Below are positions 12,110-61,509 of a DNA stretch of 64,000 nucleotides, in pieces. Position 1 is the first letter of the stretch. Each line of letters opens with the position of its first letter. A model generated the notes under the pieces. That model worked only from the letters and a program-made list of their open reading frames with translations. It was not told the origin of the DNA and did no database searches. Both the position numbers and the translations under genes were made by a program. This DNA comes from Clostridium sp. CAG:433 (GTDB lineage: Bacteria > Bacillota_I > Bacilli_A > RF39 > UBA660): assembly GCA_000433675.1 (NCBI GenBank), contig FR893564.1, positions 52,660 to 116,659 of the forward strand. Reading direction: 5' to 3'.

Positions 12110-12185
12110 GCTGAAATAGCTCAATTGGTAGAGCAACTGAATCGTAATCAGTAGGTTGCGGGTTCAATTCCTGCTTTCAGCACCA
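12110..12185 (+). tRNA. tRNA-Thr (anticodon CGT)
   Basis: Manual cloverleaf: acceptor GCTGAAA/TTTCAGC, D-arm AGCTCAATTGGTAGAGC, anticodon stem ACTGA/TCAGT with loop ATCGTAA, T-arm GCGGGTTCAATTCCTGC, encoded CCA end. Confidence 0.85.
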
Positions 12186-12252
12186 TTGACGAATCTGTTC
12201 GAACTATTCGAACTTTAAATATATGAATCAATCAGAAATGATTGATTTTTTC
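12181..12252 (+). repeat. direct repeat copy A (tRNA 3' end plus downstream; att site of element 1)
   Basis: caccaTtgacgaatctgttcgaactattcgaactttaaatatatgaatcaatca…tgattgatttttt is repeated almost exactly at 21333-21405. Confidence 0.75.
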
Positions 12253-12258
12253 GTTTTT
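12226..12258 (+). terminator. terminator hairpin downstream of tRNA-Thr
   Basis: AATCAATCA-gaaa-TGATTGATT followed by TTTTTCGTTTTTT. Confidence 0.6.
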
Positions 12259-12279
12259 TGAAAAAATCATAGAAAGGAT

Positions 12280-12558
12280 TTGTCTATGGTAAATATTATT
12301 AAAGAAGAAATTGAAATTGAAGAATCTTTAGAATCGAGGTTAAGAGTAATATGTGATTTTTGTAATACTACACCAATAATAGAAAATGGAAGTATTAGAA
12401 GAATTGATAAAACTAATTTAACTTATATTGAACCACATAGAATATATATTAAAAACAATTTATATCTAGCATTTAATTATTCAAGTGATATATATGTTAA
12501 TAACCTAGGTAAGAAGATTAAATTATCAGAACTTGAAGATTATATAAAACAAGCATAG
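12280..12558 (+). CDS. hypothetical small protein
   Basis: 92-aa ORF inside element 1 between att and recombinase; no motif recognised. Confidence 0.35.
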   Translation: MSMVNIIKEEIEIEESLESRLRVICDFCNTTPIIENGSIRRIDKTNLTYIEPHRIYIKNNLYLAFNYSSDIYVNNLGKKIKLSELEDYIKQA

Positions 12559-12751
12559 GTCTTGACTTTTGAAATAAAAACTATTATTATAAGTAACCAA
12601 TAAATGACAAGCAGTATCCGTCTTTTATTAGAAAGCGAGGTACATCTATGGTCAAATATACAATTCATTTAAATAAAATAAATAATAGAAATATTAGAGG
12701 AGTCAAGAGTATTACTTGTTAGTGCTTTTGTCTCCTCTTTTTTCGTATTAA

Positions 12752-14707
<1,956 letters not shown>

Positions 14708-14867
14708 ACAAACGAACACATTTTGTTGAAATTATATTTCAATGAAAGTGGGAAAAGTTTGTTTCATAAATATAAAAAATAAATAGTATTTAATTTTTAT
14801 ATTTAATAATTATCGTGGTACGTTATGAAATTACATTTGTAATTTTGTAAGTAGCGATAGATAATTA

Positions 14868-14930
14868 TGGATTCTAAGGATTTTATCCTTAGCCCCCGAA
14901 TTTTGGCTTAGCCGAAATACCTAGGGGGTT
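14868..14930 (+). other. candidate oriT (inverted repeats upstream of MobV gene)
   Basis: CTAAGGAT-tttat-CCTTAG hairpin then CCCCC…GGGGG-flanked GC-rich IR in otherwise AT-rich DNA, directly 5' of relaxase gene. Confidence 0.3.
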
Positions 14931-14977
14931 AAACATTTTGGATGAATCCCAAATCGTTTAAAAAGGAGGCACATTTA

Positions 14978-16360
14978 ATGGATAAAGGTATGCCATATTC
15001 ACTACATCTTGGTAGTGATAAGAATAAAAAAAATTCAGTAAGAGCAAGTGCTAAAAATAATGTAAGTGGAACTACTTCTAAAAGTAACAATGCTATTCAA
15101 AATGCTAAACAATTATCAAGAGTTGATAAACATAATTATAGAAAATATGATTATAATCAAGAAGATATTTATATAGTAAAAGGATCTAATTCTCTTTATG
15201 AAGATGTAAAAAAATTATATTTAGATTTATTTGAAGAAGCAAGAATCAAGTATAATGAAAAGCAAAGGGAAACAAGAAAGATTAATGATTATTTTTCTCA
15301 TATATCAGATAATTCTAAAAATGATTTAGCCTGTGAATTTATTATAGAACTTGGAAATAAAAAATATTGGAATACAAAAGATATGAACTTTAAAAAGAAA
15401 ATGACTAATGTTTACAAACAACAAGTAGATGATTTAGAAATGTTAGTTCCTAATTTTAAAATAGCAAGTGCAATTATTCACTTTGATGAATCATCACCAC
15501 ATATGCATATTGTAGGAGTTCCAATTAAAGAAAAAAATAAATATGGTATGGAATTACAAGTTGGTAAATCAGATGTATTTACAAAAGATTCTTTAAAAGT
15601 ATTACAAGATAAAATGAGAATACTTTGTATTGAAGAATTTAATAAAGAATATGGATTAGATAATATTCTTAAAAGAAAACGAAAAGGAAGAAATTATGAT
15701 TATCTTGTTAGTGATATGGATAACTATGTTGAAATGCAAGAAGCAATAGAAAGACATCAAATGAATATTGATAAAGTAAATGAAAGTTCAAAAGAACTAG
15801 AAAAAAATACAAATAATATAAAAGATATAGTTAATGATTTAAAGAACGTTCCTTTATCAAAAAATAATTATATTCTAAAACAAGAAGATAAAGATAAATT
15901 AGAAGATTATTTAGATAGAGTAGATAAAACAAATAATGATTATAAAACTATACATGATTTATCAGTGTCATTAAAAGATATATCTACTGAATTATCAGAA
16001 AGTAAAGAAACAATAAAAATATTACAAGAATCAAATAATGCTTTAGAATTAAGAAATACTAATTTAAAAAATGAAAATGCTAAATTAAAAGAGAAAAATA
16101 AAATACTCCAAAAAGAATTAGATAATATTAAGGAATTATTTGAAAAGATAAAAAATAAACTTAATGATTTATATCATTTCTTTGTTAATAAAATGTGGGG
16201 AGATAACGAAAAAAGAGATAAGTATTATCCCGTTGCTTATGAATTATATAAAAAGAATATTTTAGATGAAGAACAAATGAAAGATATATTAGAAACAAAA
16301 AAAAGATCTACTGAAATAGATAGAGGTTCTAAATCAAAAAATGATGATTTTGAATTATAA
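14978..16360 (+). CDS. MobV/Mob_Pre family relaxase
   Basis: HFDESSPHMHIVGVPI (HxDExxPHxH motif III of MobV relaxases), long C-terminal coiled coil; ATG 14978 has AGGAGG 8 nt upstream. Confidence 0.8.
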   Translation: MDKGMPYSLHLGSDKNKKNSVRASAKNNVSGTTSKSNNAIQNAKQLSRVDKHNYRKYDYNQEDIYIVKGSNSLYEDVKKLYLDLFEEARIKYNEKQRETRKINDYFSHISDNSKNDLACEFIIELGNKKYWNTKDMNFKKKMTNVYKQQVDDLEMLVPNFKIASAIIHFDESSPHMHIVGVPIKEKNKYGMELQVGKSDVFTKDSLKVLQDKMRILCIEEFNKEYGLDNILKRKRKGRNYDYLVSDMDNYVEMQEAIERHQMNIDKVNESSKELEKNTNNIKDIVNDLKNVPLSKNNYILKQEDKDKLEDYLDRVDKTNNDYKTIHDLSVSLKDISTELSESKETIKILQESNNALELRNTNLKNENAKLKEKNKILQKELDNIKELFEKIKNKLNDLYHFFVNKMWGDNEKRDKYYPVAYELYKKNILDEEQMKDILETKKRSTEIDRGSKSKNDDFEL

Positions 16361-16442
16361 TGTAAAATAATTGTATAAAATCATCGTATAAGGTTATGAT
16401 TTTTACATTAAATATGTTATACTAAATAAAAGGGTAGTTGAT

Positions 16443-17336
16443 GTGTTCGTGAAAGTAATTAATGAAGATTTTAACGTGATTGAAACGCCAGCAAATGTAG
16501 AACAAATTATTAATTACATAAAAGATAGTTTAGGAAAAATGAATCTTGATAATAGCATTTTGAATGAGTTATTGTTAAATATGGATAATATAAACATTCA
16601 AATTATTGATGGTGAAACCTATTCTATTAAATTACCTAATGGTTCTTTAAGGCAAAATAAAATTTCAAATGAAGTTGGTGCGCTTAAAACAAATATGGTA
16701 ATAAATGCAAATGATGAAGAATTAAACATAATACCCGGTATAGTAATGAGAAAAAACTTCAATAATCATCAATTAATTCATGAAATTTTACATGGAATAT
16801 CATCTAGACAACATAATTTATATAATGAAGATGGTATTACATATACAAAAACAGGGACAAAAATTGATTATTATGATAACTCATTAAATGATTATCCAAA
16901 TGTAACAAATCTTTCTTCAGAAGGGTTGAATGAAGGTATAACTGAATATCTTACATCATTGTTAACAAATGAGTATAACGGAAATTATGCATCTCAGGTT
17001 GTTATTTCGAGTTTATTTATGACAAGCAATAATAATTTGTTGAATGCATATTTTATGAATGATTGCTCTGGTCTTGAAAAATTTTATGATGATGTCGAGG
17101 AAAAACAAACATTGATTACTAGACAAGATTTTATTAATTTAACATCTAAAGGTTATGATTTTGATTTAATTTCAAAAATTATCGCAGCTGGAATTGAATA
17201 TAATAGAGTACATGGAAAAGAAATGACTGAGGAAAAATTAGGCAGTTTAACACAATATTTAGATAATAATATGATTCTAGACTCAGGTTCATGGAAAGAT
17301 TTGATAGCTAATTATCAAACTAATAAAACTTTGTGA
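16443..17336 (+). CDS. putative zincin-like metallopeptidase (HExxH), paralog family member
   Basis: HEILH motif followed by LNEGITEYL; distant similarity to ORFs at 22980 and 34898. Confidence 0.45.
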   Translation: MFVKVINEDFNVIETPANVEQIINYIKDSLGKMNLDNSILNELLLNMDNINIQIIDGETYSIKLPNGSLRQNKISNEVGALKTNMVINANDEELNIIPGIVMRKNFNNHQLIHEILHGISSRQHNLYNEDGITYTKTGTKIDYYDNSLNDYPNVTNLSSEGLNEGITEYLTSLLTNEYNGNYASQVVISSLFMTSNNNLLNAYFMNDCSGLEKFYDDVEEKQTLITRQDFINLTSKGYDFDLISKIIAAGIEYNRVHGKEMTEEKLGSLTQYLDNNMILDSGSWKDLIANYQTNKTL

Positions 17337-17456
17337 ACTAAGGAAAAATTGAATACTGATTTTGACTATGCAAAAGTAATTGAAGATTAAATTGAAAAAT
17401 GAGGTATTATATATGAATGATAATTTAAAAGATGAAATGTTTGATTATATCAAAAA

Positions 17457-18482
17457 ATGTCAGATGGTGAAAGTGATAGTATTAAAAATATTTATGATAA
17501 ATTTTGCAAAAATAAAATTGAAAAAATAGATTTGTTTAAATTACAAGAGGAAATTGAAAATGAATGTGAAAAGTATGGAATAATATTAGATTATTCTAAA
17601 TATGATAGTGCAATTGTCGGATTGCCTTATGATATTAGTTTTGTAAAAATAAGTAATATAAACAATATAGATAAGGATGTGAATAAAATGGAAGAATTTA
17701 AAATTAATAATAATGTATCTTTTGAAGATGAAGAAACAAAGATAGAATATCAAAAATATTTAGACAAAATAAATGAGTATAATAAAAAAATAGCAAATGG
17801 AGAAACTCCAGAAAAGGATTTATCTTCAATAATGGATGAATTCAAAGGGAAATTTATTGTTAGACCTCAAAATGGAGAACCACAAGTAAAATCAACAAAT
17901 GATTTAGATGATTTGATTAAAAAAATAGATGATAAGTTGAATATACATTCTGAAAATAAATCTATAGACGAGCAAATTAAAGATATTGATGATAGGATAG
18001 CAGATCTTGAAAAAATAGAAAATGATTCTACAAATTTTATTCCTGATTCTTTAAAAGATTTCATTTCATTTGATAGTGAAGGATATGTTTTTCCTAATCA
18101 GAAATTACCGGTTGAACTAGAAATTGAATATGATAATTTTACTCATAATTATTATAATAGTGAAGAAAATAAAATTGTTAATAGCATTGTGAATAAAATT
18201 GTTGAACTACCATATAATGTAGAAACAACAATTGCTCAATTAATAAACTATAATCCAAAAGAAGGATTTGTTGATCCTTTGACACAGGGTGTAATTAGTA
18301 ATGCTGTTGAAAAAAAATGCAAAAACAATAATATTAATATAATTGAAATTAGAGATGGTTTTGGCGGATTAGCATATAATTATAAAATTAAAAAAGTTAT
18401 AAATGAATCAAAAGATGATGGAACACCATATGCAAAAGAATATGATAAAATTTATGAAAACACCACTCAAGAAGAGAAATAA
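17457..18482 (+). CDS. hypothetical acidic protein
   Basis: 341-aa ORF; a possible upstream start at 17413 lies in another frame (see findings). Confidence 0.4.
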   Translation: MSDGESDSIKNIYDKFCKNKIEKIDLFKLQEEIENECEKYGIILDYSKYDSAIVGLPYDISFVKISNINNIDKDVNKMEEFKINNNVSFEDEETKIEYQKYLDKINEYNKKIANGETPEKDLSSIMDEFKGKFIVRPQNGEPQVKSTNDLDDLIKKIDDKLNIHSENKSIDEQIKDIDDRIADLEKIENDSTNFIPDSLKDFISFDSEGYVFPNQKLPVELEIEYDNFTHNYYNSEENKIVNSIVNKIVELPYNVETTIAQLINYNPKEGFVDPLTQGVISNAVEKKCKNNNINIIEIRDGFGGLAYNYKIKKVINESKDDGTPYAKEYDKIYENTTQEEK

Positions 18483-18888
18483 GGATATAATAAAATATTA
18501 TTGGATTTAGAAGAAAAGATAGGTATAGATGAAAAATAAAAATAAAAAATAAAAATGGTATTTCCATTTCATTTTCTTTTTGTTATAATTTATATAGGTT
18601 GATTCATATGAATCGTTATTGCCGAGAAAAAGTTGTAGACCTCTACGTCGTCGGCACCAGATTGATAGGAAACTCGAACTATAAAAGATTCGAGTTTTAA
18701 AATACTTAATTTTATGCTTAGGTATTTATAAAATTAAAATAATTATGTCAATTTAGAAAACACACTTGCAAATTGACATACCAATTAGCGTGTGTATACA
18801 TAATTTGAGTAAGAATAATTTATAAATATAAGCATTAAAACTGCAATAAATATGATAAAATATATAACAAAGTTTTGGTGGTGTTATT

Positions 18889-21150
18889 ATGCAAGAAAGC
18901 AAATATTTCTATAATGGCATACCTTTATCTAAATATTGTAAAGATAATAATATTAATATAAGCACTATACGAGCAAGAATATGGAAAAAGAAACAAAGTA
19001 AAAAATATGAAAACTATACAGAACAAGAAATTGTAGATATGGTTATAGAGGCTTATGGTAGTGCTATTAAATATATATATAAAGGGATATCTTTAAGACA
19101 ATATTGCTTAGATAATGGTATTAATATAGGAACTATTAATTCTAGAATAAATAATCTACGAAAGAAAAATGAAAATCTGTCAAATGATGAATTAGTAATT
19201 TTAGCAATGGAAGAGTTTGATAATCAAAATTTTAGATTTTTTTATAAAGGTGTACCTTTAAAGGAATATTGTGAAAGTCATCCAGAAATAAATTACAATA
19301 CTATTAGAACATACATTAACAGAGAAAAAGAAAAGAATCCAGAATTATCTGATGAGGAACTAATTAAACAATATTTAGATAAAGAGCATAAAGGAATTTA
19401 TAAATATTACTATTTGGGAATTCCACTAAAACAATATTGTGATGAAAATAATTTGAATTATAGAAACGTAATTACATATATGAGTAGATATAGAAATACT
19501 GATAACTTTAAAGGCTTAAGTGATGATGAGTTTGTTGAGGCAATTATGGACCAATATCAACCCTTTGAGTCCAAATATCTATATAATGGACTAACTTTAA
19601 GAGAATATTGTGTTCAAAATGATTTGTCATATTATAGTGTAGTATCTTTTGTAAAAAGAAGATTAGCAAAAGACAGTACGAAGAGTATTGACTATTTAAT
19701 CGATGAAGGTATAAAAACAATAAATAGGTATGGAATAATTTACTATTATAAAGGCATACCTTTAAAAGATTATGCCGAGCAAAATGATTTGAATGCAAGT
19801 TCAATTCGTTGTGCTATTTTAAGAAAACAATTAAGAGGTAATAAAACATTACAAGAAATTATTGATGAGTGTGTTGAATCTTATCAAAAATTTTCTATCA
19901 AATATTATTATAATGGGATACCACTCTTAACATTTTGTAACGACATAGGCTTGAATTATAATACAATAATTCAAAAATATTTATATGAATATGCAGATAA
20001 AACTGACATCGGTATAGATGAAGCAATAAAACAAATTGTAGATTATTATATAGAACACCCACCAATAAAAACTAAATATTACTTCAATGATCAATCATTA
20101 ACAAAATTTTGTGATGTAAACGGTTATCCTTATCTAGCAATTTGGAGAAGAATTAAGACACTACAGTCTAAAGATGATTCATTAGATAATGAACAAATTA
20201 TAGCTTTAGCAATAAAAAAATATGAAGATAGATTACAAATAGGTAAAATAAACGAAATTTTTGATAAACTAAAAAATTCCAAGATATGTGATGTTAATGA
20301 AATAAAAAGTATATGTGAATTTTTAAAAGTTGATTTTGAAAATGTAACAGATTTAGTTAATATGGATTTTTCATATAACCAAGCAATTAATATGATATGG
20401 TATTTTTCAGATAAAAAAACTAGTAATAATTATAAAATGATTACTGATAAGAAAATAAAAGATATTTTTATTTTAGTTGATAATTTAAGAAGTTCCAATA
20501 AGGACATTGAGCAGTTTGAATTATATGATTTAATAGGAATATATAAAAGTGAGTTATATGATTCAAGAAGTGAAATATTATTAAGACAAAAAAGATATAT
20601 TTATAAAACAATATATTCATTATGTAGTAGCTATGAAATTAAAGTTAATAATAGTAATTATGAAGATTTTGAAAGCGAGATTAAGTATTATTTATTAATG
20701 GTAATAAATAGAATTAATTTAAACGAAAATGGGCAAATAATTAAATATATGGATTTGACCGTTAAAGGTTATTTTAGAACTTATCTAAAAAAATATAAGA
20801 AGCAAAATAATAGTTTATCATTAGATGATGCTAAATACTCTAGTGATAAAGGCACAAGAAGAGAAAAATCAAAAATTGACTATATTTCTGATCCTAAGAA
20901 TCCGTATGATAAAACTGAAAATACCTCATTTAGTTCAGATATGATGAAAGTATTACAATCATTATCTCCAGAGGATTTATCCCTTATTATGTTAAAATAT
21001 CAAGAAAATTATAGTGATGATGAATTGGTAAGCCATTTCGATTTAACACTTGATGAAATAAAACAAAAAGAAATTGAAATATTATCATTATTAAAAAATA
21101 ATGATAATATAAAAGTCTTAAAAAAAACTAAAAATGATAATAAAAAATGA
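18889..21150 (+). CDS. protein with eight tandem ~55-aa HTH-like repeats and sigma-70-like C-terminal region
   Basis: Repeats of Y(Y/F)YKGIPLKEYCExNNLNYNTIRTYI…; C-terminus LSPEDLSLIMLKYQENYSDDELVSHFDLTLDEIKQKE resembles sigma region 4. Confidence 0.5.
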   Translation: MQESKYFYNGIPLSKYCKDNNINISTIRARIWKKKQSKKYENYTEQEIVDMVIEAYGSAIKYIYKGISLRQYCLDNGINIGTINSRINNLRKKNENLSNDELVILAMEEFDNQNFRFFYKGVPLKEYCESHPEINYNTIRTYINREKEKNPELSDEELIKQYLDKEHKGIYKYYYLGIPLKQYCDENNLNYRNVITYMSRYRNTDNFKGLSDDEFVEAIMDQYQPFESKYLYNGLTLREYCVQNDLSYYSVVSFVKRRLAKDSTKSIDYLIDEGIKTINRYGIIYYYKGIPLKDYAEQNDLNASSIRCAILRKQLRGNKTLQEIIDECVESYQKFSIKYYYNGIPLLTFCNDIGLNYNTIIQKYLYEYADKTDIGIDEAIKQIVDYYIEHPPIKTKYYFNDQSLTKFCDVNGYPYLAIWRRIKTLQSKDDSLDNEQIIALAIKKYEDRLQIGKINEIFDKLKNSKICDVNEIKSICEFLKVDFENVTDLVNMDFSYNQAINMIWYFSDKKTSNNYKMITDKKIKDIFILVDNLRSSNKDIEQFELYDLIGIYKSELYDSRSEILLRQKRYIYKTIYSLCSSYEIKVNNSNYEDFESEIKYYLLMVINRINLNENGQIIKYMDLTVKGYFRTYLKKYKKQNNSLSLDDAKYSSDKGTRREKSKIDYISDPKNPYDKTENTSFSSDMMKVLQSLSPEDLSLIMLKYQENYSDDELVSHFDLTLDEIKQKEIEILSLLKNNDNIKVLKKTKNDNKK

Positions 21151-21332
21151 ATTTTAAATATTGTAATTCTATGTTAATTGATATATAGCTATATTGAAAT
21201 GTGCCTAAGAAACTTTTGACCTTAGGTCTTTTTATTTCGTTTTATAAATTTTTATGATATACTTATATCGATTAACGTTATTACTTACTATTATTTGTTG
21301 TCTAAAAAGTTGTCGTACTTCTTCCTTTAGGG

Positions 21333-21405
21333 CACCAGTGACGAATCTGTTCGAACTATTCGAACTTTTATATATGAATCAATCATTTTTGATTGATTTT
21401 TTTTT
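21333..21405 (+). repeat. direct repeat copy B (att site of element 1, includes tRNA 3'-end remnant)
   Basis: caccaGtgacgaatctgttcgaactattcgaacttttatatatgaatcaatca…tgattgattttttttt; preceded by tttagggcacca resembling the tRNA end ctttcagcacca. Confidence 0.75.
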
Positions 21406-22979: not shown

Positions 22980-23927
22980 ATGAAAGATAGAATTATGAAA
23001 TTAGATAAAAATATTCAAGAATACATAGGCTTAGGTTTAAGAGCGGGATTATTTAATAAAAATAATCTTGAGAGGATAGTATCAAGATTAGAACGTGTTA
23101 ATTTTTCTGTAGATAATAACAATCCTGGAGATGCACAAACGGAATCTATAAGGGATAGAAATAATCCAAGAATATCATATGGATTAAATGTAAAAATGAA
23201 TGAAAGAAGAACATTAAATTCAGGAAGATATTATTTTAAAGACGAGGTATTATTTCATGAATTAACACATTGCATTAACGGTATTTATGAAAATTTTATG
23301 GAAAATTTATCTTTATGGTTTGATTTAGATAAAATGTTTGAAAATAATTTTAGTGTTAAGAGTGATGCAATAGAGTCTATGGCAAATGATCCAAATTATA
23401 GACAAAAGTCTTATTCATGGTTAGTTTTAGATGAATTTGTTGCGCAGTATGTTGCACAATTATTGGTTGAAACAAAATATAATAAAAAAATATATGTTAA
23501 TGAAAGCAAACTAATAAGACAATCAAACCCTTCAATAAATGTAAACAATAATTTTGCAGATTATCATGAATTTTATGATATTGTAATTAATTTTATAAAG
23601 CCAATATATGGTAATGATTTAAATAAATTTATTGCTGACTCGTTAGATTCAACAGTTATAAATAAAATATTTAGTTATTATAAAAATGAACCAAGTGGTT
23701 TTGTAAAATTATATAGTTTACTGGGTGAAATGGGAAATATAGGATTTGCAGTTGCATCTCCTAATTTTACTGAAGTTCAGCGAGCAACTGATTATGATAT
23801 GATTGCTAGAGATTCTCATAATTTTTATTTACATTATAATGAGGTACTAAAAATAATAAATATTATTCTTGATAGAAAATCATATATTCCTGGTATTGAA
23901 GGTAATTTTGGAGGATTAAAACAATAG
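22980..23927 (+). CDS. putative zincin-like metallopeptidase (HExxH), paralog of 34898..35857
   Basis: LFHELTHCINGIYE motif; N-terminal GLGLRAGLFNKNNLERIVSRLERV matches YLGTKIGLFNNLNIERVVSRLERV of the 34898 ORF. Confidence 0.55.
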   Translation: MKDRIMKLDKNIQEYIGLGLRAGLFNKNNLERIVSRLERVNFSVDNNNPGDAQTESIRDRNNPRISYGLNVKMNERRTLNSGRYYFKDEVLFHELTHCINGIYENFMENLSLWFDLDKMFENNFSVKSDAIESMANDPNYRQKSYSWLVLDEFVAQYVAQLLVETKYNKKIYVNESKLIRQSNPSINVNNNFADYHEFYDIVINFIKPIYGNDLNKFIADSLDSTVINKIFSYYKNEPSGFVKLYSLLGEMGNIGFAVASPNFTEVQRATDYDMIARDSHNFYLHYNEVLKIINIILDRKSYIPGIEGNFGGLKQ

Positions 23928-25636: not shown

Positions 25637-25802
25637 TTTTTTTACCTTCTTTCAAACTATTATATAATACCACAAATTTAAAAATAAATGTAGTAAATAA
25701 AATCTAAAAAATATGTAAAATTTTGTTTGCCCAAATTATTTGACAATTCTTATGACTTGTGCTATTATAATGGTCGTTATTTTCGAAGAGGGGGAGTCTT
25801 TT

Positions 25803-28043
25803 ATGGAAGAAACTAGAAAATCAACTGTAATTAGGGATTTAATAATAAAAATATTTCTAATACTTTTATTTGTATTTTTAATAACAATATTATTTCCTAT
25901 GCCTAACTTAACTGCATTTTATGATTCTGTATTTAATAATAACGTACAAAGCATGAAAGATGCTGCAGATAGTTATTTTACTAAAGATAGAATGCCTGAA
26001 AAAGTAGGAGATTCAGTAAAATTAACACTTCAAGATATGCTTGATAAAAAATTAATTTTACCATTCTTAGATAAAGATGGTAACGAATGTGATACTAAAA
26101 AATCATATGTTAAAGTAACAAAAGAAGAAAAAGAATACAAGCTAGAGGTTCATTTATCATGTCCTAATAAGGAAGATTATATTATTGAACCAATTGGATG
26201 TTATAATTTTTGTCCAGAACAAACAGTAAATTGTAATTGTTCATGTAGTGGTGCACAAGAAGAACAACCAACAACATCAGATGATGGTAAGGTTACTGTA
26301 AATAAAACAAATCCAACACCAAGTAATAATAATGATGGTGGTAAATACAAATTACAATATTTATATACAAGAACATTAACTGATATAAATTGGAATACTG
26401 GTAATTATCAATCAAATAAAGAAGACGAAAATGATAATGTAAGATTAGTAGATACTAAAACACAATATACAGGTCAAAAGAAAGTATCTGCTGGATCAAC
26501 ACAATATAAACATGTAAAATATGCTTATAAAGATAATTGGTCAGTAGTAACAGATTGGACTGATGAAGTTAAACCTATAACAGATAAGTTCAAATTATAT
26601 GCAACAAGAACATTATATACAGGTTATAAAAAAGTAACTAAAGATGTAATGAATTATAAACATATAAAATATGGTTATAGAGATAACTGGGTAATTGATA
26701 CAGGTTGGACTTATGATGTGATCCCAGAAACAACAAAAATTAAATTATATGCAACAAGAACATTATATACAGGTTATAAACCATATGTTGAAGAAACAAC
26801 GCAATATAAACATGTTAAATATGCAAATAAAGATACATGGACTGAAACAGGATGGTCAACAACTAAAAGAACTGAAAATAGTAATACTAAGTTAGTTGAT
26901 ACTAGATATACAGTTAGAAAAACAGTTAAAACAACTAAAGGTTCTTGGTCAGATTGGATAAAAGAAGGTGTTTGGAGAGATTCAAAACCTGCTGATTCAA
27001 GTACTAAACAATGGTATGGACCATATAATGAAAAAACTATAAGTACTTGGAAAACACTATATGATTCATGGAGTACAACAGAATTACAACAACCTATTTC
27101 AGGTAATAGAAGATATGAACTTTTAACTCAACATCCAGATGAATGTACAGATGCATGTAATGGTAATTCTACTGTAATGAGATATTATTACAGAGTATAT
27201 GAACTTCAAGAATCTAAACAATATATGTATTACTATAGAACATATTCTGAAACATCATCTACATCAACAGATGAAAAGGTTGTATCAAATCCAAAATCAT
27301 ATACAGATAATGGATATACAATTGTAAAAACAGAATATAAGTATAAAATAAAATCAAGTGATAATGAGATTGTTGATACAAAGTGGACAAATTCGAAAAC
27401 ATCACCATCAGGTTATGTATATGCTAATGAAAAGAAAGTAACTAAAACAACTAAATATAAAGCATTAGATAAATGGGTTACAAGTAAAGAAAAATTAGGT
27501 GAATATACATCTTACGTAAAAACTAAAAAACAATATAAATATAAAAGAAATAACCCAGAGAAATATGTTATTGGTACAATATGGACTACATCAAAAACAT
27601 CACCATCAGGTTATGAATATACTGGTGAATATACAAAGACAACAAAAACAACTTATGAACCATATAATAAATGGGTTACTAATAAAGACAAATTAGGTGA
27701 ATATACATACTATATAACAACAAAAACTCAATATAAATATAAACAAAATAATCCAGAAAAATATATTGAATCAACAATATGGACAGATTCAATAAATCCA
27801 CCTGCTGGATATACATATACTGGAGAATATAAAACAAATAGTTCAACATCATATGTAGATTTAGGTTACTGGGTTGATGATATAAAAGACTTAGGTGAAT
27901 ATACACATAATGTTAAAACTAGAAAATTATATAGATATAAATATAGAACAGTAATAACAAAAACTGAAAGCAGATGGTTTGACAAAAATCCTGGTGGAGA
28001 CTGGGTATATGCAAATCAAACAAGAAAAGTGAGAGTAAACTAA
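25803..28043 (+). CDS. large membrane-anchored repetitive protein (Cys-rich segment plus two families of ~50-aa Y/K/T-rich repeats)
   Basis: ATG 25803 after GGGGGAG; N-terminal TM; CYNFCPEQTVNCNCSCSG; repeats YKHVKYAYKDNW…KLYATRTLYTGYK (exact 39-bp DNA repeats at 26592 and 26742) and KWTNSKTSPSGY…LGEYT…KTQYKYK. Confidence 0.55.
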   Translation: MEETRKSTVIRDLIIKIFLILLFVFLITILFPMPNLTAFYDSVFNNNVQSMKDAADSYFTKDRMPEKVGDSVKLTLQDMLDKKLILPFLDKDGNECDTKKSYVKVTKEEKEYKLEVHLSCPNKEDYIIEPIGCYNFCPEQTVNCNCSCSGAQEEQPTTSDDGKVTVNKTNPTPSNNNDGGKYKLQYLYTRTLTDINWNTGNYQSNKEDENDNVRLVDTKTQYTGQKKVSAGSTQYKHVKYAYKDNWSVVTDWTDEVKPITDKFKLYATRTLYTGYKKVTKDVMNYKHIKYGYRDNWVIDTGWTYDVIPETTKIKLYATRTLYTGYKPYVEETTQYKHVKYANKDTWTETGWSTTKRTENSNTKLVDTRYTVRKTVKTTKGSWSDWIKEGVWRDSKPADSSTKQWYGPYNEKTISTWKTLYDSWSTTELQQPISGNRRYELLTQHPDECTDACNGNSTVMRYYYRVYELQESKQYMYYYRTYSETSSTSTDEKVVSNPKSYTDNGYTIVKTEYKYKIKSSDNEIVDTKWTNSKTSPSGYVYANEKKVTKTTKYKALDKWVTSKEKLGEYTSYVKTKKQYKYKRNNPEKYVIGTIWTTSKTSPSGYEYTGEYTKTTKTTYEPYNKWVTNKDKLGEYTYYITTKTQYKYKQNNPEKYIESTIWTDSINPPAGYTYTGEYKTNSSTSYVDLGYWVDDIKDLGEYTHNVKTRKLYRYKYRTVITKTESRWFDKNPGGDWVYANQTRKVRVN

Positions 28044-28091: not shown

Positions 28092-30251
28092 ATGGTAATA
28101 AGTGTACTTGTAGAAATATCATTTAATAATAAAGAAAAGACTTTTGATTATTTAGTTCCTAAAGATATAGAAGATAAAATAGAGATAGGAAAAAGAGTAT
28201 TAGTACCATTTGGTAAACAAAATCTAGAAGGATTTATAATTGATATAAAGAAAAATAGTGAATATGATTTAAAGGAAATAACTAGTATTATAGATGAAGA
28301 ACCAATACTTAATGAAGAACTTTTAAATCTTGGAAAAGAACTAAAAAAAGACTTAGTATGTAATTTAATATCAATATATCAAGCAATGCTTCCGTCAGGT
28401 TATAAAGCAAGTGCTAAAACTAATATTAATGTAAAAAAAGAAAAATATGTAAAATTAGCAAATATAAAAGAAGCTCAAGAATTTATAACTACATCAAAAG
28501 CACAAAAACAAATTGAAATAGTAGAAGATTTATTAAAAAATAAAATATCATTAAAATCAAAATATCAATCAAATATAATAAAAGTATTAAAAGATAAAGG
28601 CATTGTAATAGAAGACGAAAAAGAAAAATATAGGTTAGATAATAGTTATAAAATAGAGCCTCTTTTAAAATTAAATGAATACCAAGAAGAAGCATTAAAT
28701 CAAATAGAAAATAGTAAAAAAGATGTAATTCTTTTAAATGGTGTTACTGGATCTGGTAAAACAGAAATATATATGCATTTAATAAATAAACAAATTTCTT
28801 TAGGAAAAACAGCAATAATGCTTGTTCCTGAAATAAGTTTAACACCTCAAATTATTAATAGATTTAAAGTACATTTTGGAAATAAAATAGCAGTCTTTCA
28901 TAGTGCACTTTCTGAAAGTGAAAAATATGATGAATACAGAAAAATAAGAAGAGGAGAAGTATCTATTGTAATAGGTGCTAGAAGTGCAATATTTACACCA
29001 CTTAAAAATATTGGAATAATAATAATTGATGAAGAACATTCTAGTACATATAAACAAGAACATAATCCTAGATACAACGCAATAGATGTTGCAACTATTA
29101 GAGGTAAATATCATAATGCAAAGGTGGTACTAGGAAGTGCAACACCTCAAATAGAAAGTTATGCAAGAGGTAAAAAAGGTTATTATGAACTTGTATCATT
29201 AACAAAAAGAGCAAATAATGCAAGTTTACCAAATGTAACAATAGTTGATATGAAAAATGAGGTAAAAAAAGGTAATAGTTTATTTTCAGAAATATTAATA
29301 GAAAAAATGAGGGAAAAACTAGAAAATAATGAACAAGTAATATTATTTTTAAATAGAAGAGGCTTTTCAAGTTATCAATTATGTAGTTCATGCGGTGAAG
29401 TTATTAAATGTCCTAATTGTGATATAACACTTACATATCATAAGACTAGTGGTATGAATAGATGTCATTATTGTGGATATGCAGAAAAGAAAAAAGACAT
29501 ATGTCCAAAATGCAAGAATGAATCATTAAAAGATTTTGGTCAAGGTACAGAAAAAGTAGAAGAAGAAATAAAGAAGATATTTCAGAGTTACAGAACAGTT
29601 AGAATGGATATAGATACAACTACGAAAAAAGGTGCCCACGAAAAAATAATAAATTCATTTTTAAATCATGAATATGATATTTTAGTTGGTACACAAATGA
29701 TAGCGAAAGGTCTTGATTTTCCTCTTGTTTCGTTAGTTGGAGTAATAAATGCTGATACAATACTTAATTTTCCAGATTTTAGAAGTAGTGAAAGAACATA
29801 TCAAATGCTTAGTCAAGTATCTGGAAGAGCAGGTAGAGGAAACATAAAAGGCGATGTAATAATTCAGACATTTAATCCTGATAATTATAGTATTGAACTA
29901 TCTAAAACACATAATTATGTAGATTTCTTTAATAAAGAAATAAAAATAAGAAAGGATTTAAAATATCCACCATATTATTTTATTAGTCTAATAAAGATTG
30001 GTAGTAAAGATTATAATTTATCACTTAGTGAATCAAAAAAAATCGCAAATTATATAAAAGAAAATATAAGTGAAGATATGATTGTATTAGGTCCATCAGT
30101 ATCTGGTGTATCAAGAGTAAATAAAATATATTATTTTCAAATAATTATAAAATTTAGGAATAAAGAAAAAATGAGAGAAATATTAAATAATGTATCGGAT
30201 TTAGAAAATAATAATAAAGTTAGCATTAGTATTGATATAAATCCATGTTAA
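28092..30251 (+). CDS. priA: primosomal protein N' (PriA helicase)
   Basis: Walker A LNGVTGSGKTEIY, DEEH box IIIDEEHSS, Cys4 zinc fingers CSSCGEVIKCPNCD…CHYCG…CPKC, helicase C motifs; 719 aa. Confidence 0.9.
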   Translation: MVISVLVEISFNNKEKTFDYLVPKDIEDKIEIGKRVLVPFGKQNLEGFIIDIKKNSEYDLKEITSIIDEEPILNEELLNLGKELKKDLVCNLISIYQAMLPSGYKASAKTNINVKKEKYVKLANIKEAQEFITTSKAQKQIEIVEDLLKNKISLKSKYQSNIIKVLKDKGIVIEDEKEKYRLDNSYKIEPLLKLNEYQEEALNQIENSKKDVILLNGVTGSGKTEIYMHLINKQISLGKTAIMLVPEISLTPQIINRFKVHFGNKIAVFHSALSESEKYDEYRKIRRGEVSIVIGARSAIFTPLKNIGIIIIDEEHSSTYKQEHNPRYNAIDVATIRGKYHNAKVVLGSATPQIESYARGKKGYYELVSLTKRANNASLPNVTIVDMKNEVKKGNSLFSEILIEKMREKLENNEQVILFLNRRGFSSYQLCSSCGEVIKCPNCDITLTYHKTSGMNRCHYCGYAEKKKDICPKCKNESLKDFGQGTEKVEEEIKKIFQSYRTVRMDIDTTTKKGAHEKIINSFLNHEYDILVGTQMIAKGLDFPLVSLVGVINADTILNFPDFRSSERTYQMLSQVSGRAGRGNIKGDVIIQTFNPDNYSIELSKTHNYVDFFNKEIKIRKDLKYPPYYFISLIKIGSKDYNLSLSESKKIANYIKENISEDMIVLGPSVSGVSRVNKIYYFQIIIKFRNKEKMREILNNVSDLENNNKVSISIDINPC

Positions 30252-60511: not shown

Positions 60512-61509
60512 ATGAATAACATAAATAAGGATTTTTGTTGTGATGATTTTTCAAAGGCAAAGAAAATACTAGAAGGCGCAAATAGTTGTAAATATTGTTA
60601 TGTATTAGGTCCAACAGGACCACAAGGTGGTCCAGGCCCAATTGGTCCACAAGGAGAAATCGGTCCAAAAGGTGACATGGGTCTTCAAGGACCTAAGGGT
60701 GATAGAGGAGATATTGGTCCAACAGGACCTAAAGGAGAAAATGGACCTACTACAATTACAGTAGAATCAACTTCTTTAGCAGAAGTAACAAATACTGGAA
60801 CCAATAAGGATGTTATTTTAAATTTCAAAATACCAAAAGGCGCAACTGGTGAAATGTGCCCTAAGGGTGAAAAAGGCGATATAGGACCTAGAGGACTTCC
60901 TGGTGAAATAGGTATTAGTCAGGCTATTACAATAGATGGGACAGAAACAATAGAACCAAACGAACTTGCAGAAGTGCAAGATGATTTTGAAAGTAATATT
61001 CATCATTTGACATTCTATATACCAAAAGGAGAAAAGGGTGAAAAGGGTGATCAAGGAGAAGTGGGACCAAGAGGACCCGCAGGACCTGCCCCAGATGTTG
61101 CATATGGTGAAAGATATTTAGATTTAGAACAAGAATTAGTTTTAACAAAGGATCGAGATACAGTAGTTCCTTTAAATTTAGGGGGACCTGCATTTTTACA
61201 TATTTTGATACTGAAAACACTATTGAAATAAAACAAAATGGTTTCTATTTAATATCATATTTCTTTAGTGCATCACCTAGTGAGGACTGTAAGATAACAG
61301 CTATGGTAAAATATAATGATTTATTATTCCAGGCATGTAATGTAACAACTGACATGAAAGCAAATACTATTGGAAATATTACTAATACAATAATAGGAGC
61401 ATTAAATGATGGAGACAAGGTTACATTATGTGTAAGGTCATCAGTAAATACAACATTAACATTTGATGGAAGCACTAGCGCTAATCTAGTATTAGTAAGA
61501 ATTCACTAA
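60512..61509 (+). pseudogene. BclA-like collagen-triple-helix-repeat protein, frameshifted between collagen region and C1q/TNF-like C-terminal domain
   Basis: GPTGPQGGPGPIGPQGEIGPKGDMGLQGPKGDRGDIGPTGPKGENGP and GEKGEKGDQGEVGPRGPAGP repeats in frame A (60512..61231); C-terminal domain (…FDTENTIEIKQNGFYLISYFFSASPSEDCKITAMVKYNDLL…VRIH) continues in the -1 frame to 61509; switch region contains G5 and T5 runs. Confidence 0.5.

What the first reader, a model, noticed from the sequence alone, without database searches (positions are those of the whole stretch)
18889..21150. 753-aa protein with eight tandem HTH-like repeats fused to a sigma-70-like C-terminus, carried on the mobile element
Residues 1 to about 450 are eight tandem ~55-aa units of the type YYYKGIPLKEYCE-NNLNYNTIRTYI, each resembling a helix-turn-helix. 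The C-terminal 250 aa contain stretches resembling sigma region 2 (…EDFESEIKYYLLMVINRIN…) and region 4 (LSPEDLSLIMLKYQENYSDDELVSHFDLTLDEIKQKE). I do not recognise this architecture. It could be an element-encoded alternative sigma or anti-repressor with an extended DNA-binding array. An AT-rich upstream region carries a 9-bp perfect inverted repeat (TGTCAATTT…AAATTGACA, about 18747-18780) overlapping a TTGACA-N16-TATACA promoter. A GC-rich structured segment (18600-18700) is also present.
Basis: seen in the sequence. Interest (0 to 1): 0.55.

Follow-up and report, generated by a model that had tools for sequence, protein, structure and literature searches.

The report
Sigma-like protein with eight-unit HTH-like array
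The gene encodes an unannotated relative of bacterial sigma factors (the RNA polymerase subunits that choose promoters) with eight small helix-turn-helix-like modules in front. It travels as cargo of small mobile elements that insert at the 3' ends of tRNA genes in uncultured gut bacteria.

Summary
ORF 18889-21150 (+) encodes 753 aa with eight ~55-aa units (each a beta-hairpin plus three helices), a ~95-aa helical domain, and a sigma-70-type module (sigma2, region-3.2-like linker, sigma4, no sigma3).

Sigma homology is solid:
- 46 of 47 diverse relatives hit TIGR02937.
- Profile-profile probability against bona fide sigmas is 98.2%.

The HTH nature of the units rests only on weak summed profile hits and the predicted fold.

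The family has about 292 clusters at 50% identity, with 1-11 units before the sigma module. It carries no Pfam domain and no source name.

Mobile context is partly right. An empty-site contig shows that an intact serine-recombinase/MobV element (12186-18659) inserted at the tRNA-Thr CCA end, and the gene lies just outside it. The gene itself sits in a 2.7-kb segment bracketed by the same att-like pseudo-tRNA ends, which I read as a decayed element. In another genome it is the last cargo gene inside such an element.

The inverted repeat belongs to the element family's leader. The conserved promoter is an extended -10 at 18853-18861.

Most likely function: an element-borne alternative sigma with an auxiliary DNA-reading array (inferred).

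The parts
12110..12185 (+). tRNA-Thr(CGT). Its CCA end (core GCACCA, 12180-12185) is the integration site.
   Evidence: ARAGORN and Rfam. Identical to L001 bases 1-77.
12186..18659 (+). Intact integrative mobilizable element (about 6.47 kb). Contents: leader with two hairpins (12186-12279), small ORF C3 (12280-12558), large serine recombinase (12767-14707), MobV/Mob_Pre relaxase (14942-16360), two unknown cargo ORFs (16443-17336, 17457-18482), and a pseudo-tRNA right arm ending in GCACCA (18654-18659).
   Evidence: Absent from the empty-site contig L001, which joins the tRNA directly to window 18651 onward at 99.9% identity. Pfam and NCBIfam domains.
18620..18698 (+). It comprises a pseudo-tRNA acceptor/T-arm-like hairpin of the element's right end, the GCACCA core, and then the hairpin AAACTCGAA/TTCGAGTTT (18670-18697) that follows the CCA end.
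   Evidence: Junction alignment. RNA fold z = -3.6. Inverted repeat I7.
18660..18810 (+). A-type leader (GATTGATAGGAAACTCGAAC...) of the gene-bearing segment. It includes the 11-nt inverted repeat (18744-18754 / 18770-18780) and TTGACA-N16-TATACA (18773-18800). This is the left end of the element family.
   Evidence: All 15 copies in the loci follow a CCA or pseudo-CCA end. The leader is shared with cassettes carrying other genes. In metagenomes it is followed by C3 and the recombinase in about one third of cases.
18853..18884 (+). Conserved extended -10 promoter TGATAAAAT (18853-18861) and RBS GGTGGTG (18878-18884).
   Evidence: The only upstream block conserved in all 12 aligned orthologous loci.
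18889..21150 (+). Gene for the 753-aa protein.
   Evidence: ORF list. 26 species-level orthologs at 59-100% identity. dN/dS 0.14-0.31.
18904..20244 (+). Eight ~55-aa units (aa 6-452). Each is a beta-hairpin plus three helices, with signature Y-x-Y-x-G-x-x-L-x-x-Y-C.
20245..20523 (+). Conserved helical domain X (aa 453-545) of unknown identity, possibly a degenerate ninth unit.
   Evidence: Conserved across the family. pLDDT 86-98. No family hit.
20524..20811 (+). Sigma2-like domain (aa 546-641; regions 2.1-2.4, preceded by the invariant YKxxLYDTR motif).
20812..20934 (+). Disordered linker (aa 642-682). Its SLDxxxY...IDxI motif aligns to region 3.2/4.1 of SigA. There is no sigma3 domain.
   Evidence: pLDDT 49-58. 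Alignment to SigA ISLETPIG...GDFIE.
20935..21123 (+). Sigma4 domain (aa 683-745; regions 4.1-4.2 HTH).
21304..21337 (+). Pseudo-tRNA right arm ending in GCACCA (21332-21337). This is the right end of the gene-bearing segment.
   Evidence: Alignment with the tRNA end and with the right end of the intact element. Core scan.
21338..21402 (+). N-type leader remnant, about 90% identical to the left end of the intact element (12186-12251). It includes the terminator hairpin at 21349-21365.

Best explanation
What it is (shown). The protein is a divergent member of the sigma-70 superfamily. Its last ~210 residues form a sigma2 domain, a region-3.2-like flexible linker and a sigma4 domain, with no sigma3. 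This is an ECF-like two-domain layout with group-3-like sequence features. A conserved helical domain and an array of eight specialised ~55-aa HTH-like modules precede the sigma module.

How it works (inferred). It binds core RNA polymerase through sigma2 and sigma4 and directs initiation at its own promoter class. The N-terminal array makes additional sequence-specific contacts with upstream DNA. Each unit would read a different subsite, because the units keep positional identity across orthologs.

Expression and context (shown, except where marked). The gene has its own conserved sigma-A-type extended -10 promoter. It is cargo of a family of small serine-recombinase/MobV integrative mobilizable elements that insert at the CCA end of many tRNA genes. 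In this window it sits in a recombinase-less, att-bracketed remnant (18660-21337), in tandem with an intact element (12186-18659). The remnant status and any mobilisation in cis or trans are inferred.

Targets. They are unknown.
For: Sigma homology:
- TIGR02937 hits 46 of 47 diverse relatives, best E 8e-14. Sigma70_r4 hits 26 of 47.
- The family profile against PDB returns only sigma factors at the top, with E about 1e-12. FliA and SigW align across sigma2 to sigma4.
- hhalign against genuine sigmas from related genomes gives 98.2% probability, E 3e-14, over 168 columns from region 2.1 to 4.2.
- The linker retains the SLD...ID.I motif, which aligns to SigA region 3.2.

Array:
- Eight units share one predicted fold.
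- Positional orthology holds down to about 40% overall identity.
- dN/dS for the array is 0.09-0.28.
- The family has 1-11 units ahead of the same sigma module.
- Summed hits to HTH families: IS66 TnpA 2.6e-12, BcepMu gp16 6e-9.

Mobile context:
- Empty site in L001.
- att-like cores at 12180, 18654 and 21332.
- Cargo position in L004.
- The gene follows six different tRNA or tmRNA genes in orthologous loci.
- Gene dS of 0.10 against 1.07 for a syntenic neighbour, for the window versus L021.
- The junction motif follows 11 kinds of tRNA and is followed by C3 and the recombinase.

Promoter.
Against: - The window protein itself scores below NCBIfam's cutoff for TIGR02937 (26.2 versus 42.9 bits) and hits no Pfam sigma model.
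- Core-RNAP binding and promoter recognition are untested.
- The canonical tryptophans of region 2.3 are not evident in the alignment (by inspection).
- No anti-sigma gene or autoregulatory ECF-type promoter was found. The gene's promoter looks sigma-A-type.
- Per-unit HTH hits are marginal.
- The array is not basic (pI 7.4).
- No periodic DNA target was found near the gene.
- Most elements of the family lack this gene: 1 of 119 junction loci has it. It is therefore not a core element function.
- Distant family members are chromosomal and not tRNA-linked.
Confidence: 0.5

Rival explanations
1. It is a sigma-derived DNA-binding regulator (repressor, activator or anti-repressor) that no longer works as an RNA polymerase subunit. 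Sigma4, sigma2 and the HTH-like units would all serve only as DNA-binding or protein-binding modules controlling element or host genes.
For: The window protein scores below the curated sigma cutoffs. No sigma3 domain is present and region 2.3 is atypical. Many HTH-like modules in one chain is more typical of DNA-binding regulators. Some family members consist of repeats only, with up to 21 units.
Against: The whole sigma2-linker-sigma4 arrangement is conserved across about 300 clusters and aligns end to end with real sigmas. This includes the region-3.2-like linker motif, whose known role is inside the polymerase. Sigma2 is under purifying selection (omega 0.07-0.24).
Confidence: 0.2
2. It is a functional sigma factor whose N-terminal array is regulatory rather than DNA-reading. 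The array would act as an auto-inhibitory or signal- or partner-binding extension, as proposed for ECF sigmas with terminal extensions.
For: ECF sigmas with N-terminal extensions are known only from genome surveys, and their extensions are thought to regulate activity (PMC8103513). No anti-sigma gene is adjacent. The array has a neutral pI. The unit fold could not be placed among DNA-binding folds.
Against: The units resemble the HTH segments of IS66 TnpA, BcepMu gp16 and terminase or excisionase families. Unit-specific conservation and a variable unit number fit modular recognition of an extended ligand better than a simple inhibitory domain.
Confidence: 0.15
3. It is a cargo gene that benefits the element or the host by hijacking transcription under stress or phage attack. 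This would be a defence-type or toxic element-encoded sigma. Plasmid-encoded sigmas that trigger cell death are an analogy from my own knowledge, not tested here.
For: It occupies the cargo position of the elements. In L004 its neighbour is a strong match to PADLOC candidate defence gene PDC-S56 (E 7e-224). It appears to spread horizontally.
Against: No PADLOC match for the protein itself. Distant family members sit in ordinary chromosomal contexts. The conserved promoter looks constitutive.
Confidence: 0.1
4. It is an accessory factor for site-specific recombination at tRNA CCA ends, either architectural or controlling directionality. The many HTH-like units would bind the att arms.
For: It lies next to att-like sites in eight loci. 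It has weak resemblance to excisionase and terminase-type HTH families.
Against: Only 1 of 119 element junction loci carries it. Distant relatives are not near tRNAs or recombinases. The sigma module is unexplained by this role.
Confidence: 0.05

Closest known systems
Sigma-70 family alternative sigma factors, especially two-domain (ECF, group 4) and FliA/SigF-type (group 3) sigmas
   Same: Sigma2 and sigma4 domains in the canonical order, joined by a flexible linker with a region-3.2-like motif. Profile, profile-profile and structural matches are all to sigma factors.
   Different: About 545 extra N-terminal residues (eight HTH-like units plus domain X). The protein scores below the curated family cutoffs. 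No sigma3 domain. No anti-sigma partner or ECF-type autoregulated promoter was seen.
ECF sigma factors with N-terminal extensions (former groups ECF87-89, Planctomycetes)
   Same: A sigma core with a long N-terminal extension of unknown mechanism. The review states that no mechanistic information exists for such extensions (PMC8103513).
   Different: A different phylum (gut Firmicutes/Bacilli). The extension here is a modular tandem array with a variable number of units. No sequence relationship was tested.
Tn916 Orf7/Orf8 regulatory module
   Same: An element-encoded transcription regulator located near one end of an integrative element (PMC5812530). That Orf7 is sigma-like is from my own knowledge.
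   Different: No homology was tested. Here a terminator hairpin follows each att core, so read-through across the joint is unlikely. The gene is absent from most elements of the family.
IME-CIME accretion at tRNA genes (cis-mobilizable elements)
   Same: A recombinase-less segment flanked by att-like sites, in tandem with an intact IME at the 3' end of a tRNA gene. This matches the three-step accretion model (PMC5704250).
   Different: The recombinase is a large serine recombinase. According to that review, known serine-recombinase IMEs mostly target sites inside protein genes. Here the targets are the CCA ends of at least 11 kinds of tRNA.
Modular DNA-binding repeats of homing endonucleases (NUMOD/IENR-type)
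   Same: Tandem small DNA-binding modules. The only high-probability BFVD hit is a putative phage HNH endonuclease (E 0.013).
   Different: No nuclease domain. No Pfam NUMOD hit. The evidence is a single weak structural match.

Membership tests
Sigma-70 superfamily | Sigma2 domain (regions 2.1-2.4) | tested here: met
Sigma-70 superfamily | Sigma4 domain (regions 4.1-4.2 HTH) | tested here: met
Sigma-70 superfamily | Score above the curated family threshold (TIGR02937 42.9 bits, or the Pfam gathering scores) | tested here: not met
   The window protein scores 26.2 bits for TIGR02937 and has no Pfam sigma hit. Relatives reach E 8e-14.
Sigma-70 superfamily | Binds core RNA polymerase and confers promoter-specific initiation | not testable with these tools
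   Requires biochemistry.
ECF (group 4) sigma factors | Only sigma2 and sigma4, no sigma3 domain | tested here: met
   The AF2 model shows a ~40-residue low-confidence linker between sigma2 and sigma4 and no third domain.
ECF (group 4) sigma factors | Cognate anti-sigma factor encoded nearby, or an autoregulated ECF-type promoter | tested here: not met
   Neighbouring genes differ between genomes. The conserved promoter is an extended -10 of the sigma-A type.
Helix-turn-helix DNA-binding domains (for the repeat unit) | Recognisable match to an HTH family, or an HTH fold confirmed by structure comparison | tested here: inconclusive
IS66 accessory protein TnpA / BcepMu gp16 | Full-length match to the family model | tested here: not met
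   Only profile positions 17-45 of 79, and 13-33 of 55, are matched, repeatedly.
Integrative mobilizable element (for 12186-18659) | Integrase plus relaxase, flanked by att sites, with a documented empty site | tested here: met
   Serine recombinase and MobV. Empty site in L001 and a shared GCACCA core.
Cis-mobilizable element (for 18660-21337) | attL- and attR-like sites retained, with integration and transfer genes lost | tested here: met
   Cores at 18654 and 21332 with pseudo-tRNA arms. The segment holds a single gene and no recombinase. The related intact arrangement is in L004.
Cis-mobilizable element (for 18660-21337) | Actual excision or mobilisation | not testable with these tools
   Only indirect evidence: different tRNA neighbours in close relatives, and dS of 0.10 against 1.07 for a neighbour.

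The most novel reading that the evidence does not exclude
The family is a new class of 'array-guided' sigma factors. A variable, modular chain of specialised mini-HTH units (1-11 per protein) reads a long composite DNA address and delivers a minimal sigma2-sigma4 initiation module to it. Promoter choice would then be set largely by the array rather than by classical -35/-10 recognition, making this a protein-based analogue of guided sigma recruitment. The family spreads between gut bacteria on tRNA-targeting serine-recombinase elements.
Probability: 0.15. Interest if true: 0.85.

Novelty: new variant of a known kind. Interest (0 to 1): 0.55.

Why it matters
- Sigma factors with long N-terminal extensions have no mechanistic precedent. 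The review read here (PMC8103513) says none has been studied.
- A sigma core fused to a tunable array of DNA-binding-like modules would be a new way to specify promoters. It could also serve as a modular tool.
- The family is abundant in uncultured human and animal gut Bacilli, yet it carries no annotation.
- Its carriers are small serine-recombinase/MobV elements that insert precisely at the CCA end of at least 11 different tRNAs and build tandem arrays. That is unusual for serine recombinases and relevant to gene flow (including defence genes) in reduced-genome gut bacteria.

Tried and rejected
- tblastn of the protein against phage and plasmid collections found nothing.
- Pfam on the window protein gave only spurious sub-threshold hits: UDPG_MGDP_dh, Peptidase_C34, Phage_GPD.
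- Rfam on the whole window found only the tRNA.
- A unit profile against PDB sequences found nothing.
- AFDB50 Foldseek was unavailable.
- Tandem DNA repeats as possible array targets: none near the gene.
- PADLOC gave no hit for the protein.
- No source provides a name for the protein.
- I considered the gene a conserved chromosomal 'anchor' next to an insertion hot spot. I rejected this because close orthologs follow six different tRNA or tmRNA genes, downstream genes are not syntenic, and dS is ten-fold lower than for a neighbour.
- I considered the gene the element's own integrase-like function, given its position next to the tRNA. I rejected this because 118 of 119 junction loci lack it and the recombinase is present instead.
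- I considered read-through from the gene across the att joint, as in Tn916. This is unlikely because a terminator hairpin follows each core.
Full report
**Observation.**
- The ORF at 18889-21150 (+) encodes 753 aa.
- A motif scan finds eight units starting at aa 6, 62, 117, 173, 230, 285, 339 and 397.
The inverted repeat is actually 11 nt perfect: 18744-18754 and 18770-18780. TTGACA-N16-TATACA lies at 18773-18800. A stably folding segment lies at 18600-18705, with z = -3.6.
- Promoter-like sites are no more frequent than in shuffled sequence, 33 against 33.0. Short inverted repeats are common in this ~23%-GC DNA. These upstream features therefore matter only if they are conserved.

**The C-terminal module is a sigma-70-type module.**
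- The window protein alone gives sub-threshold hits: TIGR02937 E 5e-6, phrog_1740 'RNA polymerase sigma factor' E 2e-9, and SigA region 4 in PDB E 0.004.
- An exhaustive search found 292 clusters (at 50% identity) of relatives.
- Among 47 diverse full-length members, 46 hit TIGR02937 (best E 8e-14) and 26 hit Pfam Sigma70_r4.
- The top hits of the family profile in PDB are all sigma factors. Sigma4 matches at E about 1e-12. FliA and SigW align from region 2.1 to region 4.2.
- hhalign against seven genuine sigmas from related genomes gives 98.2% probability, E 3e-14, over 168 columns.
- An AlphaFold model of aa 445-753 has pLDDT 84.7. It shows a helical domain, a four-helix sigma2, a ~40-residue disordered linker, sigma4 and a terminal helix.
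- The linker motif SLD...ID.I aligns with SigA's ISLETPIG...GDFIE, which is region 3.2/4.1.
- There is no sigma3 domain. The protein is a sigma-superfamily homolog with a two-domain layout, but it does not pass the curated thresholds.

**The N-terminal array.**
- AlphaFold predicts eight copies of a beta-hairpin plus three-helix unit. Per-unit pLDDT is about 80, and pTM is 0.30, so the units behave like beads on a string.
- NCBIfam hits to IS66 TnpA (E 2.6e-12) and BcepMu gp16 (E 6e-9), and PHROG hits to terminase small-subunit and excisionase HTH families, cover only the helix-turn-helix part of those models. They are sums over units. Single units score E of 0.001 or worse.
- Each unit is most similar to the same-numbered unit in orthologs, down to about 40% overall identity.
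- The array has the lowest dN/dS in the protein, 0.09-0.28.
- Across the family, 1-11 units precede the same sigma module. Some proteins are repeats only, with up to 21 units.

**Distribution.**
- Orthologs at 59-100% identity occur in 26 species-level genomes of uncultured gut Bacilli, including CAG:582 and Ca. Onthousia, from human, rabbit and ruminant samples.
- No source names the protein, and no Pfam domain is precomputed for it.
- There is one copy in the window.

**Mobile context.**
- Upstream lie a tRNA-Thr(CGT), a small ORF (C3), a large serine recombinase, a MobV relaxase and two unknown ORFs.
- Contig L001 encodes a 100% identical protein and joins the tRNA (its bases 1-77) directly to window 18651 onward at 99.9% identity. 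So 12186-18659 is a recent 6.47-kb insertion at the CCA end, sharing the core GCACCA, and the gene lies outside it.
- A third core with a similar pseudo-tRNA arm lies at 21332-21337. It is followed by a ~65-nt copy (about 90% identical) of the intact element's left leader. The gene therefore occupies a 2.68-kb att-bracketed segment with no recombinase.
- In L004 the gene is the last gene of an element: tRNA-Thr(GGT), then C3, recombinase, Mob and a 643-aa ORF, then the gene, then a pseudo-tRNA end, then a second element. The 643-aa ORF is a strong match to PADLOC candidate PDC-S56.
- Orthologs follow Thr-CGT, Thr-GGT, Arg-TCT, Leu-CAA, Leu-TAG and tmRNA genes. Other flanking genes are not syntenic.
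- Between the window and L021 the gene's dS is 0.10, against 1.07 for the one syntenic neighbour.
Of 123 junctions, 60 follow genuine tRNAs of 11 kinds and 57 follow pseudo ends. C3 and the recombinase start about 100 nt downstream in roughly a third of cases. Only one locus (L100) carries the gene, again just upstream of a junction.
- This fits the published accretion model, in which decayed elements (CIMEs) sit in tandem with IMEs (PMC5704250). The gene is an occasional cargo, not a core function.
- Distant family members are chromosomal and not tRNA-linked.

**Upstream elements.**
- The leader containing the inverted repeat and the TTGACA box is shared with cassettes that carry other genes. 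It is absent or different in many orthologs.
- The only universally conserved upstream block is TGATAAAAT (18853-18861) plus the RBS.

**Mechanism.**
- Shown: sigma2-linker-sigma4 homology, the specialised and constrained unit array, an independent conserved promoter, and the cargo position in tRNA-targeting elements.
- Inferred: the protein acts as an alternative sigma whose array adds upstream DNA contacts. Targets are unknown.
- Rivals: a sigma-derived regulator that does not bind polymerase, a regulatory rather than DNA-reading extension, a defence-type or toxic sigma, and a recombination accessory factor.
- ECF sigmas with N-terminal extensions exist but remain mechanistically unstudied (PMC8103513). 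Tn916's Orf7/Orf8 is a loose analogue of an element-end regulator (PMC5812530).

**Verdict.** This is a real, unannotated and widespread variant of the sigma-70 family with a novel modular N-terminal array, carried by tRNA-targeting serine-recombinase elements. Interest is moderate to high, and function remains to be tested.

Noticed in passing
window 12186-18659; loci L033-L151: A family of small IMEs (C3 small ORF, large serine recombinase, MobV relaxase) integrates exactly at the CCA end of at least 11 different tRNA species and forms tandem arrays separated by pseudo-tRNA ends. According to the IME review (PMC5704250), serine-recombinase IMEs usually target sites inside protein genes, so tRNA-end targeting looks unusual.
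   Followed up: partly
L011 8020-8190, L012 8139-8309, L020 4421-4591, L007 4275-4445: A second leader type follows the junction. It has a hairpin AAAACGCAC...GTGCGTTTT, then a conserved ~90-nt stretch (…GGATACATTTGATTG…AATCAAATGCAATCCCTTAT…GGATAGCATCTGAA) with apparent internal complementarity. This may be a structured RNA.
   Followed up: no
L004 8027-9958: The element cargo gene next to the L004 ortholog is a near full-length match to PADLOC candidate defence gene PDC-S56 (E 7e-224).
   Followed up: no
L031 1048-5924 and L032: A distant family member (P0169, 622 aa, six units) lies immediately upstream of a 244-aa ORF, two sigma genes, a PRC-barrel gene and sepF. This arrangement is reminiscent of a spoIIGA-sigE-sigG-ylmC-sepF cluster.
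   Followed up: no
window 16443-17336 and 22980-23927: Two unannotated ORFs flanking the gene's segment each contain an HExxH motif (HEILHGISS and HELTHCINGIYE), suggesting zinc metallopeptidase-like cargo. No family hit was found.
   Followed up: partly
window 25740-28043: A 767-aa ORF contains 150-nt and 198-nt tandem DNA repeats (26465-27831). It is probably a repeat-domain surface protein.
   Followed up: no
window 60512-61231: The ORF contains GGxCCx-rich sequence that reads as collagen-like Gly-X-Y repeats.
   Followed up: no
L013 3509-5806, L017 6173-8437, L024 9986-12247: In three species-representative genomes the ortholog is split into two or three ORFs. These may be pseudogenes or assembly errors.
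   Followed up: no
window 28092-30251: A 719-aa ORF has weak helicase-type matches to defence-system proteins (Cas3, DpdF, DruE; E 1e-5 to 1e-2).
   Followed up: no
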